Below, one piece after another: positions 1,017-5,773 of a DNA stretch of 64,000 bases. Each line of letters starts with the position of its first letter. Position 1 is the stretch's first letter. A program made the position numbers and the translations under genes. A model generated the notes under the pieces. The model did no database searches and was not told where the DNA came from. It was given only the letters and a program-made list of their open reading frames with translations. This DNA is from a virus, in the IMG/VR virus record IMGVR_UViG_3300028388_001496, positions 15,317-79,316 of that record. One strand, given 5' to 3'.

Positions 1017-2453
1017 ATGGCTATATTTTATTCAGTAACTAAGAGCGTGGGTATAAGGACGTTAACTGTATCTCAGGATACAGAATATGTCTTGTACTAT
1101 GTCTGTGGTAGAAAGAAAACAGTTGTTATGAGTGGGAGTATATCTCCTGGTGATTCTGTTATCTTATCGGCCAGTAAAGACGGAACATACGAACTCATCC
1201 TAAGTAAAACAGGTGAAACTGATATTACTTATACTTATACTGTTTATCAAAACCTTCTTAAATCCCTTTTAATTGATATTGAAACTTATCTTGGCGATGA
1301 ATGTGTAACTACTTCTTGCAATGATAAGTATAATGTATGCATAGAAAGAGAAGCTGAAAGGTACTTCCAATACAAAGATTTATATACTAAATTACTTGCT
1401 TTCCAAGCTCTTTACTTTGAAGAGATAAGTGATGGTTTAGTTACTATCTTTTCTAACTTTATTACTGCTGCTGTAGATAATGATCGTTGTAGTATTCAAA
1501 CTTATATTAATGATATGCTTAAAGAAGAGTGTATCTGGGGAGCAGCTAACAGCACCTCTCAACTCTATACAGAGCTTATAGGTTATTATTATTACGCTAT
1601 TTATTTTACTGAGAAAAATATAGCAGGAGCTAATCAAGATGAGTTAGATTACATAGAAAGTCTTTTCAATACGGAAACTATTGATAATCTAGTAAATAGT
1701 AATACTTGTATAGATCCAGCACAAACTGAAGATATTTATAATGAAGTTGTTTCTGCTGGTAATACTAAACCTACTGTGGATGATTACCAAATTGTGCCTC
1801 CTATAAACTTACCTGATAACCTATTCCAATATACATTTACTGGAATAGAATTTACAAATAACTTTCAGGACGTTCAAGGCGATTTGCCAGGGAAAATTAA
1901 GTTTTCCCTATTGCCAGTCAGGGGTACTCTTAAATATAACGGAGTTGCAGTTACAATCGGTACAGAGTATTCGTATTCTAATGTTGATTTGTTTACCTAT
2001 GAGGTAACGATTGGGGAACAATTAATCATATTCGATGTAATTCAATTTCAAGTAAGTGATGATAATTTAAACTCAATTTATAGTGATATGGCACAAGTAA
2101 CAATTAATACTTCTGCTTATGTTAACCAACCGATTAGTCAGCTCGGTGATCTTACTCTTAATAAGAATAACAGGGAAAATCATGTATTTACTATTAGTGA
2201 TTTCACTACTAGTTTGGTTCCTCCTTATGTTGATCCTGAAGGAGATTCACTTGATGCTATTCGTGTAGATACTTTACCTGCTACAGGTACTCTACAACTA
2301 AGCGGAGTTAATGTTACAGCAAATGATATTATTGATGCAGCAGATATTAATGCTGGAAACTTTGTATATGTAGCTCCTGATCAGGATGGAAGTGCAAGTA
2401 ACAGTTTTAATTTCTCTGCTAGAGATGCTGGTTCCCTGCAATGGGTTAACTAA
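1017..2453 (+). CDS. Structural/adaptor protein with two C-terminal cadherin-like (Ig) domains
   Basis: Two repeats of D-x-[QE]-GD...LPxxGTL...F[TV]Y...F[QN]FxxxD; second repeat ends without its final strand. Confidence 0.7.
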   Translation: MAIFYSVTKSVGIRTLTVSQDTEYVLYYVCGRKKTVVMSGSISPGDSVILSASKDGTYELILSKTGETDITYTYTVYQNLLKSLLIDIETYLGDECVTTSCNDKYNVCIEREAERYFQYKDLYTKLLAFQALYFEEISDGLVTIFSNFITAAVDNDRCSIQTYINDMLKEECIWGAANSTSQLYTELIGYYYYAIYFTEKNIAGANQDELDYIESLFNTETIDNLVNSNTCIDPAQTEDIYNEVVSAGNTKPTVDDYQIVPPINLPDNLFQYTFTGIEFTNNFQDVQGDLPGKIKFSLLPVRGTLKYNGVAVTIGTEYSYSNVDLFTYEVTIGEQLIIFDVIQFQVSDDNLNSIYSDMAQVTINTSAYVNQPISQLGDLTLNKNNRENHVFTISDFTTSLVPPYVDPEGDSLDAIRVDTLPATGTLQLSGVNVTANDIIDAADINAGNFVYVAPDQDGSASNSFNFSARDAGSLQWVN

Positions 2454-3127
2454 TGGCTACAGTAACTATTAATACAGGACAGGCTGGACTTCCTCCGGAT
2501 GCATTTCTAATGTTTCTAGGAGGAAGTGTTGCCCCTGTTAACTTTACAGGTGGAGGATATTTAACTCAATTGGATGCAAGTCCTAGTAGTGATCCTGATG
2601 GTACTATAGAAACTTATAAGTTCTATCGTAGAACAGATGGTGGAAATTGGATATTATTTGTTACGAAATCTACTCCGTATGCAAACCATCAAATTTATAG
2701 TACATCTACTGTAGAGTATAAAGTAGTTGTAGTTGATAATGATGGTCTTGAAGACGAGTCTGGAATACTTACGGTAAATTTTACTGAAGAAGCTGTTATA
2801 AATTGTGATGCAGTAATAAATGGTAAGAATTTTGTTACTAGGTATATTCAACCTTTAGATGCTACTTTTGTATTAGATGGTACTGAAAGTGATCCAGGAA
2901 ATGAAAGTGCTACTATAACTTCTTACACTTGGAGAATAACTTCTGCACCTGCTGGAAGCACAGCTCGTATAGCTAATAGTATTGCTTCTAGAACTTCAAT
3001 AGGCTACTTGAATGTTCAAGGAATTTATTATGTACAGCTTAGTATTTATAGTAGTAATGGTACCACTGATAGTCTACTTGTAGAAATAGAAGTTAAAGAC
3101 ACTGACGAAAATGGAAATTATCTGTAA
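2453..3127 (+). CDS. PKD/Ig-domain appendage protein
   Basis: LDASPSSDPDGTI and LDGTESDP...SYTW...GIYYVQL PKD-like motifs; TAATG coupling to the upstream gene. Confidence 0.7.
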   Translation: MATVTINTGQAGLPPDAFLMFLGGSVAPVNFTGGGYLTQLDASPSSDPDGTIETYKFYRRTDGGNWILFVTKSTPYANHQIYSTSTVEYKVVVVDNDGLEDESGILTVNFTEEAVINCDAVINGKNFVTRYIQPLDATFVLDGTESDPGNESATITSYTWRITSAPAGSTARIANSIASRTSIGYLNVQGIYYVQLSIYSSNGTTDSLLVEIEVKDTDENGNYL

Positions 3128-4367: not shown

Positions 4368-5773
4368 TGGCTTTAGTTACCATAAATAACTATTTTAAAA
4401 GTAGTATTACTTTTCAGTTTGCTCAGACTGCTGCTTCTGTACCAGGAGTACGTTTTATTTCTAGTACTAGTAATCAATATAAAACTACTATAGATGGTGG
4501 AACACCTAGTTATAGTCCAATTAGTGATGTTGTAGAAATTCCTATTAACACTCCTCTTAATACTTTTGTAAGTGTAGAAATTGAAGTACTTAGAGGCAAT
4601 AGTCTTGATACTATTTTAGAATTTGAAGTTACAGGTGCTGGAGCAATTAGTACTAGTGCTTTAAATATTGGGCAAAGTATGCCTAATTTAACAAAGTTAA
4701 AAACTAGTATTAGTACTTCATTAGGAGATTTAACAGGTAATATATCTGATCTTCCTACTGGATTAACTTACCTGTATTATAGGGGTAGTATATCTGGATT
4801 AGTAACAGAGTTGCCTATAGGCTTAACTTATTTATATGCTAGAGGAACCGATACTGATTTTAATTTAACAGGATCATTTGCTGATTTTCCTAGTACTATA
4901 GAAACTATTTATTTTTATCGTACAGGTGTTGTAGCGTCCGCAGGTATTGGAGGAAATATAGGAGATTTACCAACAGGTGTCATAACTGTTAATGGTACTT
5001 TTGATCAACCTGCTACTATAGATTTTGATAATCTTCCTTCTACTATTGAGTCTATTCAATTAGCTAATGGTAGTCAAGGTAATATTACCTTAACAGGAAG
5101 TATTAATAATACTCCTTCTAATTTTGTATATCTTTTTATAAGTGCACCAGGAACTGGAAGTACTTGTGACTTAACTGGAGATGTTGCAAATTTACCTAAT
5201 ACTGTAAGATATTTTTATCCTGGTAGTTTTCCTACTGATACTAATACTATTACAGGTACTATTGCAAATTTACCTACTTCTCTTTCAAGAATAAGATTAG
5301 AAGGAAATAATACTTTATCTGGTGATATTGCAGATATGCCTTCTGGTGCTGGTATAGTATCTATATTTGGTAATAATACTATATCAGGTAATATACAAAG
5401 TTATGGAGGTACTCCTAGTTATTTACAAATAGAAGGCAACAATACCATATCAGGAGATTTAGGACTTATTCCTAATGCTTTTATTAATTTAATAATAAAA
5501 GGTGCTGCAACTATTAATGATTTTACTTATCCTGCTTTAAGTAATGTTGTAAACGCTGGTGTTGCTTTTGATATAGAAATAGTAGGTAATTCAAGTTTTA
5601 CTTCAGCAGAGATAGATAATCTATTAATTCATTTTGATGCTTTTTTACCCATTACTACTTCTCCAGGTTCAAACATAGCGTTTAACGGTATAGGGGCTGG
5701 TTCAAGAACTTCAGCATCAGATGATGCATATAATAGTTTGATTTCTAAAAATTATAATGTAATTTTAAATTAA
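4367..5773 (+). CDS. Leucine-rich-repeat-like putative receptor-binding protein (paralog of preceding gene)
   Basis: Same MALVTINN start, G[DN]IxxLP repeats and shared C-cap (DxLxI...RTSASDxA). Confidence 0.7.
   Translation: MALVTINNYFKSSITFQFAQTAASVPGVRFISSTSNQYKTTIDGGTPSYSPISDVVEIPINTPLNTFVSVEIEVLRGNSLDTILEFEVTGAGAISTSALNIGQSMPNLTKLKTSISTSLGDLTGNISDLPTGLTYLYYRGSISGLVTELPIGLTYLYARGTDTDFNLTGSFADFPSTIETIYFYRTGVVASAGIGGNIGDLPTGVITVNGTFDQPATIDFDNLPSTIESIQLANGSQGNITLTGSINNTPSNFVYLFISAPGTGSTCDLTGDVANLPNTVRYFYPGSFPTDTNTITGTIANLPTSLSRIRLEGNNTLSGDIADMPSGAGIVSIFGNNTISGNIQSYGGTPSYLQIEGNNTISGDLGLIPNAFINLIIKGAATINDFTYPALSNVVNAGVAFDIEIVGNSSFTSAEIDNLLIHFDAFLPITTSPGSNIAFNGIGAGSRTSASDDAYNSLISKNYNVILN

What the first reader, a model, noticed from the sequence alone, without database searches (positions are those of the whole stretch)
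1760..4390. Incomplete cadherin-like domain whose missing last strand is the N-terminus of three downstream genes (donor-strand plug-in tips)
Seen: in ORF 1017, Ig repeat 1 ends FQVSDD..SIYSD-MAQVTINT. Repeat 2 ends FNFSARDAGSLQWVN-stop, exactly where that strand should begin. The next three genes start MATVTINT (2453), MALVTINN (3165) and MALVTINN (4367), while their bodies differ (PKD vs LRR). Established: donor-strand complementation links Ig-fold subunits in chaperone-usher pili. Inference: one socket accepts three interchangeable adhesin tips, giving mixed receptor specificity without gene rearrangement.
Basis: partly seen in the sequence, partly recalled or inferred. Interest (0 to 1): 0.85.

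Follow-up and report, generated by a model that had tools for sequence, protein, structure and literature searches.

The report
Split Ig domain joins phage fibre proteins
In a marine crAss-like phage, a fibre base protein ends in an immunoglobulin-like domain that lacks its last strand, and the three receptor-binding-type genes after it each begin with exactly that strand, so the tips probably snap into the base as pilus subunits do, which is inferred from sequence and models and not shown by experiment.

Summary
ORF 1017-2453 ends its second cadherin-like domain just before the last (G) strand. Genes at 2453, 3165 and 4367 start MATVTINT, MALVTINN and MALVTINN, almost the same as the base protein's own internal G strand, MAQVTINT.

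It is not a sequencing error or a recoding site. All 22 phage homologues stop at the same point. In 77 related viral loci, 39 of 44 genes starting just after such a stop open with a strand-like M-A-x-F-x-I-N-I motif (p 2e-28), at stop-to-ATG offsets of -1 to +149 nt in all three frames.

A close relative has stop and ATG in frame. Read through as one chain, AlphaFold2 models its plug as the missing strand, and domain 2 then matches complete Ig domains.

Many relatives show a base, adapter, cap order. Several carry 2-3 plug genes per socket, as here.

The whole 79-kb record encodes one socket protein and three near-identical plugs on diverged PKD and LRR bodies, so interchangeable tips are plausible.

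Binding in trans was not tested because the complex predictor was closed. The principle is known from chaperone-usher pili and from the Tuc2009 BppU-BppA joint. This scan has noted the same kind of split in other phage genomes.

The parts
1017..2453 (+). Base ('socket') protein, 478 aa. It has an N-terminal FN3-like beta-sandwich (aa 1-77), a helical bundle (aa 78-247) and two cadherin-like Ig domains, the second lacking its last strand.
   Evidence: ORF list. AF2 model mc58a98e3066c, mean pLDDT 88.6. The N-terminal domain matches generic FN3/Ig sandwiches, Z about 9. phrog_22884 virion structural protein, E 1.6e-35, with the match ending at profile position 255 of 256.
1761..2111 (+). Cadherin-like domain 1 (aa 249-365), complete. 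Its own last strand is AQVTI (aa 359-363) within MAQVTINT (nt 2088-2111).
   Evidence: DSSP of the model gives F strand 340-348 and G strand 359-363. The socket-domain HMM also matches here.
2112..2450 (+). Cadherin-like domain 2 (aa 366-478), the 'socket'. It ends ...FNFSARDAGSLQWVN, after the F strand and the loop, with no G strand.
   Evidence: In the model the last strand is 466-470, the A' strand is not formed, and the chain ends. It is 46% identical to a repeat of the bacterial adhesin fragment P0025, which continues ...DPAPNTMIVNVTAVNDAP. All 22 phage homologues end at the same point.
2451..2455 (+). TAATG stop-start overlap between the base gene and tip gene 1.
   Evidence: The frame of gene 2 has a TAA at 2447-2449, so no fusion by frameshift is possible upstream of nt 2450.
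2453..3127 (+). Tip 1, 224 aa: plug MATVTINT (nt 2453-2476) followed by two PKD-type domains.
   Evidence: PF22352 K319L-like PKD, E 1.2e-11. Orthologues in L080 and L081 start MATVTIVN and MATVTMIN.
3165..4367 (+). Tip 2, 400 aa: plug MALVTINN (nt 3165-3188), a small N-terminal region with a DWGDG motif (PKD-type by motif only, my reading), then LRR-like repeats.
   Evidence: LRR_8 and LRR_4, weak. It is 31% identical to tip 3 in the body and 8/8 identical in the plug. Orthologues in L080 and L081 start with the plug as their first Met.
4367..5773 (+). Tip 3, 468 aa: plug MALVTINN (nt 4367-4390) followed by an LRR solenoid. Its ATG overlaps the stop of tip 2 (TAATG).
   Evidence: The Atlas model has TM 0.66 to LRR receptor ectodomains, and its feature neighbours are viral LRR_4 proteins.

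Best explanation
The region encodes a modular virion fibre held together by a split cadherin-like Ig domain.

Shown:
- The base protein (1017-2453) ends in a domain that has strands A to F but no G strand.
- Each of the three downstream proteins carries the missing strand as its first eight residues (MA[TL]VTIN[TN]). The hydrophobic residues fall at positions 4 and 6 of the plug.
- The split is conserved in many distant phages.

Inferred:
- After translation the plug lies between the A' and F strands of the base protein's domain 2 and completes the sandwich. This gives a tight non-covalent joint, the principle of donor-strand complementation in pili, here without a dedicated chaperone.
- The record encodes a single socket protein and three almost identical plugs on unrelated or diverged bodies (one PKD-PKD, two LRR). 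Each base copy therefore probably carries one of three alternative tips, and a virion with many base copies would display a mixture of binding specificities.
- Relatives use the same connector in series: base, then adapter (plug plus one or two domains plus socket), then a small cap.
For: 1. Every one of the 22 phage homologues of the base (29-78% identity) stops 5-9 residues after the conserved D-x-G-S, just before the last strand. Bacterial relatives continue with ...NTM(T/I)VNVTAVNDAP.
2. Among 56 unique socket ends in 77 viral loci, 44 have a gene start within 150 nt. Of these, 39 open with a plug-like N-terminus, against 85 of 726 other ORFs, many of which are themselves plugs (odds ratio 59, p 2e-28). 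The consensus of 38 unique plugs is M-A-x-F-x-I-N-I.
3. Stop-to-ATG offsets run from -1 to +149 nt, and the three frames are used 13, 10 and 16 times. These are separate genes, not recoding products.
4. In the AF2 model of the base alone, domain 2 lacks the G strand, its A' strand is not formed, and its F strand is only 5 residues long.
5. In the close relative L080 (59% identity) the stop and the ATG are naturally in frame (TAA-CAA-ATG). Read through as one chain, the plug A235-N241 is a strand (mean pLDDT 84 for residues 231-240), the F strand lengthens to 212-222 and the A' strand 130-135 forms.
6. In that model, domain 2 including the plug (residues 127-244) aligns to a solved phage Ig domain (8fxr_P3, Z 8.1, rmsd 2.2 A over 84 residues). 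Domain 1 (residues 5-121) aligns to the same fold.
7. Close relatives keep the arrangement. L080 has three plug genes and L081 has two. In L081 the internal G strand and both plugs share the same I-to-M change (MATVTMNS, MATVTMIN, MATVTMIN).
8. The plugs are 63-100% identical where the tip bodies are 27-43% identical.
9. Only one socket-domain protein is found in the window and in the whole 79,316-bp record.
10. In the cultured Cellulophaga phage phi14:2, g083 ends in a socket, g080 starts with a plug (MAQFLITT) and ends in a socket, and g079 starts MGTFSITV. The record annotates g083 and g080 as MS/MS-confirmed virion proteins.
11. A solved phage precedent exists: in Tuc2009 a beta-hairpin of BppU completes an Ig-like domain of BppA (PMC4742702).
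Against: No test of binding in trans was possible. The readthrough fold is a single chain, in which the plug sits where an unsplit domain would place it, so it shows compatibility and not affinity or specificity.

AF2 models the socket-only domain 2 with high confidence (pLDDT 82-95), so instability without the plug is not demonstrated.

Some relatives (P0011, P0012, P0015, P0017, L016) keep a plug-like internal strand directly after the helical domain with no upstream domain to receive it. The strand may therefore have another role there.

Five of the 44 genes that follow a socket have no plug. In phi14:2 the gene after g083 has none.

The oligomeric state of the base and its place on the virion are unknown. 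No fused base-plus-tip protein was found.
Confidence: 0.7

Rival explanations
1. The shared N-terminus is a general docking motif. The three tips use it to attach to some other virion component, such as a hub or a trimeric stem. The truncated domain of the base is simply a six-stranded variant that stays open or is covered by something else.
For: Conserved N-terminal anchors on alternative receptor-binding proteins are common in phages (general knowledge). In crAss001 the tail-fibre protein gp22 docks into the hub by its residues 1-26 (PMC10172136). AF2 gives the socket-only domain high confidence. Some relatives have an internal plug-like strand with no cis socket.
Against: The plug matches in sequence the cis G strand of the same protein (MAQVTINT), and the two co-vary in L081. 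The truncation point is exactly one strand short when compared with unsplit bacterial repeats. Plug genes follow socket stops 39 times out of 44 across very diverse loci, including adapters that carry both elements. The readthrough model completes the fold.
Confidence: 0.15
2. The joint is as proposed, but the tips are not interchangeable. The base forms a fixed oligomer, for example a trimer, whose sockets are filled in a defined 1:1:1 arrangement. Alternatively only one tip is on the virion and the others act elsewhere.
For: The window and L080 have three plug genes. The base has a large helical N-terminal domain with conserved cysteines that could oligomerise. The TAATG coupling of base to tip 1 and of tip 2 to tip 3 suggests set expression ratios.
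Against: The number of plug genes per socket varies among close relatives: two in L081, three in L080 and in the window. Two of the plugs are identical and the third differs at two positions, so no sequence basis for ordered occupancy is visible.
Confidence: 0.1
3. Base and tip are made as one polypeptide by programmed frameshifting or stop-codon readthrough, as known for Ig-like domains added to phage structural proteins. Alternatively the TAATG junction is an assembly error in a single gene.
For: Ig-like domains are sometimes appended to phage structural proteins by programmed frameshifts (general knowledge). The stop and start overlap here.
Against: The frame of gene 2 has a TAA two codons upstream of its ATG, and there is no slippery heptamer. 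The same split occurs in independent contigs with offsets from -1 to +149 nt in all three frames. All 22 homologues from different samples end at the same residue. One socket cannot be fused to three downstream genes.
Confidence: 0.02

Closest known systems
Donor-strand complementation and exchange in chaperone-usher pili (Fim, Pap, Caf1, CFA/I); related cases are type V pili of Bacteroidota and TasA fibres (established knowledge)
   Same: In both, an Ig-like subunit lacks its C-terminal G strand. The next subunit supplies that strand from an N-terminal extension with alternating hydrophobic residues. Subunits with both a plug and a socket can chain, and a tip adhesin ends the fibre. The tandem-domain model also aligns with the strand-complemented CfaB-CfaB fusion 3f84_B (Z 6.9), but that is a generic Ig match.
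   Different: There is no sequence relationship to pilins; the domain belongs to the bacterial cadherin-like adhesin repeats. The phage record has no PapD-like chaperone and no usher was looked for. Assembly is presumably cytoplasmic. Here the plug is the very first residues of the protein. One socket is offered three alternative plugs, whereas a pilus is a homopolymer rod.
Lactococcus phage Tuc2009 baseplate tripod, BppU-BppA joint (crystal structure, mBio 2016, PMC4742702)
   Same: It is a phage adhesion device in which an Ig-like (titin-like) beta-sandwich of one protein is completed by strands of another, and the joint attaches an accessory carbohydrate-binding module.
   Different: [quoted passage not shown] Here the donor is a single N-terminal strand and the acceptor is the C-terminal domain of the upstream protein. 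No homology between the two systems was tested. Tuc2009 is a Gram-positive siphophage. It shows no serial base-adapter-cap order and no set of alternative plugs.
Cellulophaga phage phi14:2 (Crassvirales, Steigviridae) proteins g083, g080 and g079
   Same: The socket domain is homologous (32% identity to ORF1 aa 268-478; 47% to the L007 adapter). The truncation point and the plug-type N-termini are the same. The record annotates g083 and g080 as MS/MS-confirmed virion proteins.
   Different: phi14:2 has two sockets and two plugs, arranged as a linear chain (base, adapter, 113-aa cap). A plug-less fibre gene (g081) lies between the base and the adapter. The record annotates these genes only as 'virion structural protein' or 'hypothetical protein', and my literature searches found no description of the split.
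Bacterial cadherin-like repeat adhesins (Pfam PF17963, PF17803, PF16184)
   Same: The domain family is the same. The socket profile finds 7623 representative proteins, the top ones with up to 44 tandem repeats. One bacterial repeat is 46% identical to domain 2.
   Different: In the adhesins every repeat is followed in cis by its own last strand and linker. In the phage proteins the terminal repeat is cut before that strand.

Membership tests
Bacterial cadherin-like repeat domain (PF17963 / PF17803 / PF16184) | Sequence similarity to the repeat family | tested here: met
   A direct Pfam scan gives only a sub-threshold match (PF16184, E 0.056, profile positions 38-92 of 106). However, homologues found with ORF1 carry PF17963, PF17803 and PF16184, domain 2 is 46% identical to a repeat of P0025 (E 9e-22), and the socket profile retrieves thousands of multi-repeat adhesins.
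Bacterial cadherin-like repeat domain (PF17963 / PF17803 / PF16184) | Complete seven-strand sandwich with the last strand in cis | tested here: not met
   Domain 1 meets this and domain 2 does not. Domain 2 ends after the F strand and loop, and the Pfam match stops at profile position 92 of 106.
Donor-strand-complemented fibres (chaperone-usher pili type) | Subunit Ig fold that lacks the C-terminal G strand, leaving a groove | tested here: met
   With the plug present, the model gains the G strand, and the A' and F strands lengthen.
Donor-strand-complemented fibres (chaperone-usher pili type) | N-terminal extension on the partner subunit with alternating hydrophobic residues that matches the missing strand | tested here: met
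   MATVTINT, MALVTINN and MALVTINN at residue 1. The consensus of 38 unique plugs is M-A-x-F-x-I-N-I. Enrichment after sockets has p 2e-28.
Donor-strand-complemented fibres (chaperone-usher pili type) | Physical insertion of the donor strand into the groove of another polypeptide | not testable with these tools
Only a single-chain readthrough model of a natural in-frame relative could be made.
Donor-strand-complemented fibres (chaperone-usher pili type) | Dedicated PapD-like chaperone and an outer-membrane usher | tested here: not met
   PF00345 (PapD_N) has no match in the 79-kb record at E up to 1. An usher was not searched for. The region is therefore not a member of the chaperone-usher family, only an analogue of its joining principle.
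Donor-strand-complemented fibres (chaperone-usher pili type) | Homology to pilin subunits | tested here: inconclusive
   Only generic Ig-level structural matches were found (CfaB fusion 3f84_B Z 6.9, FimH 8v3j Z 6.9). The sequence family is the cadherin-like adhesin repeat.
Tuc2009 BppU-BppA type composite Ig joint | An Ig-like domain of a phage adhesion protein completed by strands of a second virion protein | tested here: inconclusive
   Sequence complementarity and models support the same principle here. The precedent itself was read. The donor differs in polarity and strand number, and homology was not tested.

The most novel reading that the evidence does not exclude
An eight-residue N-terminal strand and a strand-deficient cadherin-like domain form a general, chaperone-free plug-and-socket system for building phage fibres in marine crAss-like phages, with a base, adapter, cap (or tip) order. 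A phage could then gain, stack or mix receptor-binding modules just by placing a gene with the right first eight codons downstream of a socket. In this phage, three different tips would compete for one socket, giving mixed-specificity virions from a fixed genome.
Probability: 0.5. Interest if true: 0.8.

Novelty: new variant of a known kind. Interest (0 to 1): 0.7.

Why it matters
The fibres of crAss-like phages are the part that the published virion structure could not resolve (PMC10172136), and how these phages attach several different receptor-binding proteins is an open question.

A sequence-readable connector would do three things:
- It would let fibre architecture, meaning which protein sits on which, be read from genomes.
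- It would explain how tip genes are exchanged while the base stays conserved. Here the base is 58% identical between relatives and the tips 27-43%.
- It would offer a small natural tag-and-catcher pair for engineering phage host range or for protein assembly.

It would also be a second, independent use of donor-strand complementation outside bacterial pili, apparently without a chaperone. It can be tested in a cultured relative, Cellulophaga phage phi14:2.

Tried and rejected
- The look-up of sequencing runs listed no run, so no read-level check of the junction and no expression data were obtained.

**Searches that gave little**
- Single-protein scans of viral contigs and metagenome contigs found no relatives. 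Alignment-based scans did.
- megablast against phages found no match.
- A whole-chain Foldseek search of the base model gave only generic multi-Ig hits.
- The wide VIA search identified only the N-terminal FN3-like sandwich. The helical domain stays unassigned.
- A profile search of PDB sequences gave no hit.
- The 'longer' homologue search found only bacterial adhesins and no fused phage base-plus-tip protein. This is weak evidence.
- The representative search was dominated by giant adhesins and could not be used to count sockets.
- PHROG scans of ten further window proteins were uninformative about the fibre's location.
- Literature searches for a described donor-strand phage fibre found none beyond the Tuc2009 joint.

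**Ideas considered and rejected**
- Frameshift or readthrough fusion: rejected on variable frames and spacers, and on the TAA in the -1 frame.
- Assembly error: rejected on conservation in independent samples.
- Closure of the socket in cis by the strand that precedes the domain: rejected on topology. The strand ends at the far end of the domain from where strand A must start, and the linker is only about 8 residues. This is my inference and was not modelled.
- The base protein's own N-terminus (MAIFYSVT) as a plug: rejected. It is a strand of the N-terminal sandwich in the model and is not conserved in homologues.
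Full report
**Context**

The window is bases 15317-79316 of a 79,316-bp IMG/VR virus record, 89% complete by CheckV. Its nearest named relative is Cellulophaga phage phi14:2, a crAss-like phage of the Crassvirales, family Steigviridae. The region lies in the virion module. A capsid-like ORF ends at 921. After it come the base gene, three tip genes, three small genes, and fibre-like or enzyme-like proteins.

**Observation**

The sequence matches the finding at the stated coordinates.
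- ORF 1017-2453 (478 aa) carries two cadherin-like repeats.
- Repeat 1 ends ...SIYSDMAQVTINT.
- Repeat 2 ends ...FNFSARDAGSLQWVN, followed by a stop.
- The stop overlaps the next ATG (TAATG).
- The next three genes begin MATVTINT (2453), MALVTINN (3165) and MALVTINN (4367).
- The DNA of the four motif copies differs at synonymous positions.

The tip bodies differ. Tip 1 is PKD (PF22352, E 1.2e-11). Tip 3 is an LRR solenoid. Tip 2 is a 31%-identical paralogue of tip 3 with an identical plug.

**What is missing from domain 2**

Domain 2 is 46% identical to a repeat of a bacterial cadherin-like adhesin fragment, P0025. The alignment ends at ...FSARDTGGPAF. The bacterial protein then continues ...DPAPNTMIVNVTAVNDAP before its next repeat. 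The phage protein therefore lacks one loop remainder and one strand. The downstream N-termini (M-A-T-V-T-I-N-T) read like that strand.

The AF2 model of the base (mean pLDDT 88.6) has four parts:
- an FN3-like sandwich, aa 1-77;
- a helical bundle, aa 78-247;
- a complete domain 1, with F strand 340-348 and G strand 359-363 (AQVTI);
- a domain 2 that stops after a short F strand (466-470), has no G strand, and has no formed A' strand.

**Not an artefact and not recoding**

All 22 phage homologues of the base (29-78% identity, from many samples) end 5-9 residues after the conserved D-x-G-S.

An alignment-based scan of viral contigs returned 77 loci. In these:
- there are 56 unique socket ends, of which 44 have a gene start within 150 nt;
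- 39 of those 44 genes open with a plug-like N-terminus, against 85 of 726 other ORFs, many of which are themselves plugs on adapters or further tips (Fisher p 2e-28);
- stop-to-ATG offsets run from -1 to +149 nt, and the three frames are used 13, 10 and 16 times.

In the window, the frame of gene 2 has a TAA two codons before its ATG. Frameshift fusion, readthrough fusion and assembly error are therefore rejected.

**Structural compatibility**

In L080, whose base is 59% identical to ORF1, the stop and the next ATG are in frame (...WVSS-TAA-CAA-ATG). I translated this stretch with table 6 and folded it as one chain, using an alignment of sockets and other in-frame relatives. The results:
- Residues 1-240 have block-mean pLDDT of 84-98.
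- The plug A235-N241 is a strand.
- The F strand lengthens to 212-222 and the A' strand 130-135 appears. Both are the elements left unpaired in the socket-only model.
- VIA-align places domain 2 with the plug (127-244) on a solved phage Ig domain (8fxr_P3, Z 8.1, rmsd 2.2 A over 84 residues).
- Domain 1 (5-121) falls on the same fold, and the pair (1-244) on tandem cadherins.

This shows that socket plus plug makes one canonical domain. It does not show binding in trans.

**An order of parts in relatives**

The loci show a recurring arrangement:
- a base of about 320 aa ending in a socket;
- then an adapter of 122-247 aa with both a plug and a socket;
- then a small cap of about 128 aa with a plug only.

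Several loci have two or three plug genes after one socket (L007, L021, L045, L049, L080 and the window).

Where a phage has two sockets, each socket type is followed by its own plug type. For example...RDTGSMIWVQ is followed by MLYTITNS, and ...ADSGSG... is followed by MG.I.I.I. Sockets ending ...GSG.Y.G are followed by plugs with F at position 6. This suggests matched pairs, although shared ancestry is not controlled for.

In phi14:2, g083 (socket), g080 (plug plus socket) and g079 (plug) fit a linear chain. The record annotates g083 and g080 as MS/MS-confirmed virion proteins.

**This phage**

Only one protein with this domain exists in the window and in the whole record. Three plugs that differ at no more than two of eight residues sit on bodies that are only 27-31% identical to one another.

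Close relatives keep the layout, with three plug genes in L080 and two in L081. In L081 the internal G strand and both plugs share an I-to-M change. Between relatives the base is 58% identical, the tips 27-43% and the plugs 63-88%. This is the pattern expected for a conserved connector on fast-evolving receptor-binding modules.

The simplest reading is that the three tips compete for the same socket, so virions carry a mixture. A fixed arrangement on an oligomeric base cannot be excluded.

**Comparison with known systems**

The mechanism resembles donor-strand complementation in chaperone-usher pili, but this is not a member of that family. There is no PapD-like chaperone in the record, no pilin homology, and the domain belongs to the cadherin-like adhesin repeats.

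One solved phage precedent for a composite Ig domain exists. In Tuc2009 a C-terminal hairpin of BppU completes the titin-like domain 2 of BppA (PMC4742702). The crAss001 virion atlas did not resolve the fibres beyond residues 1-26 of gp22. My literature searches found no description of this split in crAss-like phages.

Notes from this scan report the same kind of split in at least eight other phage genomes. The phenomenon therefore recurs within the scan. I took from those notes only the Tuc2009 lead, which I checked by reading the paper.

**Caveats**

- Binding, affinity, stoichiometry and location (tail or head) are untested.
- AF2 models the open domain with high confidence, so its instability without the plug is not shown.
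- Some relatives keep a plug-like strand with no cis socket. This is unexplained.
- Five of the 44 genes that follow a socket lack a plug.

**Verdict**

The split is conserved and the two parts are structurally complementary. The plug-in reading is the best explanation, at about 0.7. It is a new variant of a known joining principle, with good experimental access through phi14:2.

Noticed in passing
window 2088-2453: The internal G strand keeps its Met (M358), which is invariant in the 8 closest homologues. A product starting at this ATG would be 121 aa: plug, one domain and a socket. Stand-alone genes of exactly this build (122-125 aa) exist in other phages (L020, L022, L023, L045, L047, L068). 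ORF1 therefore looks like a base fused to an adapter. Whether the internal start is used is untested.
   Followed up: partly
P0011, P0012, P0015, P0017 and L016:7863-8912: These base proteins of 346-354 aa lack domain 1 but keep the plug-like strand (for example EDMAQMTINSGSYVNQ) directly after the helical domain. The strand has no cis socket, and what it pairs with is unexplained.
   Followed up: no
L001:8651-8992 (phi14:2 g079) and small cap genes in L026, L039, L041, L046, L048, L049: The small terminal plug-only proteins (113-132 aa, one of 264 aa in L049) end in a shared motif of a His followed a few residues later by a C-terminal Cys. Examples are ...SRYHNGTYC...SRDHSGNYC and ...RSHTTLEC.
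   Followed up: no
L003:8409-8450: A 12-codon mini-ORF, MAKVKIVIKPRR, which looks like a plug, lies in frame directly after a socket stop. Its stop overlaps the ATG of the real plug gene (MATVFLNI...).
   Followed up: no
window 6768-10888: Two large fibre-like or enzyme-like virion-module proteins start with signal-peptide-like N-termini typical of Bacteroidota (MKKILFFLLMLVGFSLSAQ and MIRFLIFFLFSLPVFSQQ). This was already followed up by another report of this scan (e1-6103130).
   Followed up: no
window 3111-3164: An upstream in-frame ATG at 3111 would add 18 residues (MEIICKIWNWLKKLWKKI) before the plug of tip 2 and would overlap the end of tip 1. Relatives L080 and L081 have no such extension, so 3165 is the likely start.
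   Followed up: partly
window 6089-6499: The 136-aa protein starts MAITRIDV, which loosely fits the plug pattern. The L081 gene that carries the same SSD[IV]KP..AP motif starts MVKKLDNG, without a plug, so this is probably coincidence.
   Followed up: no
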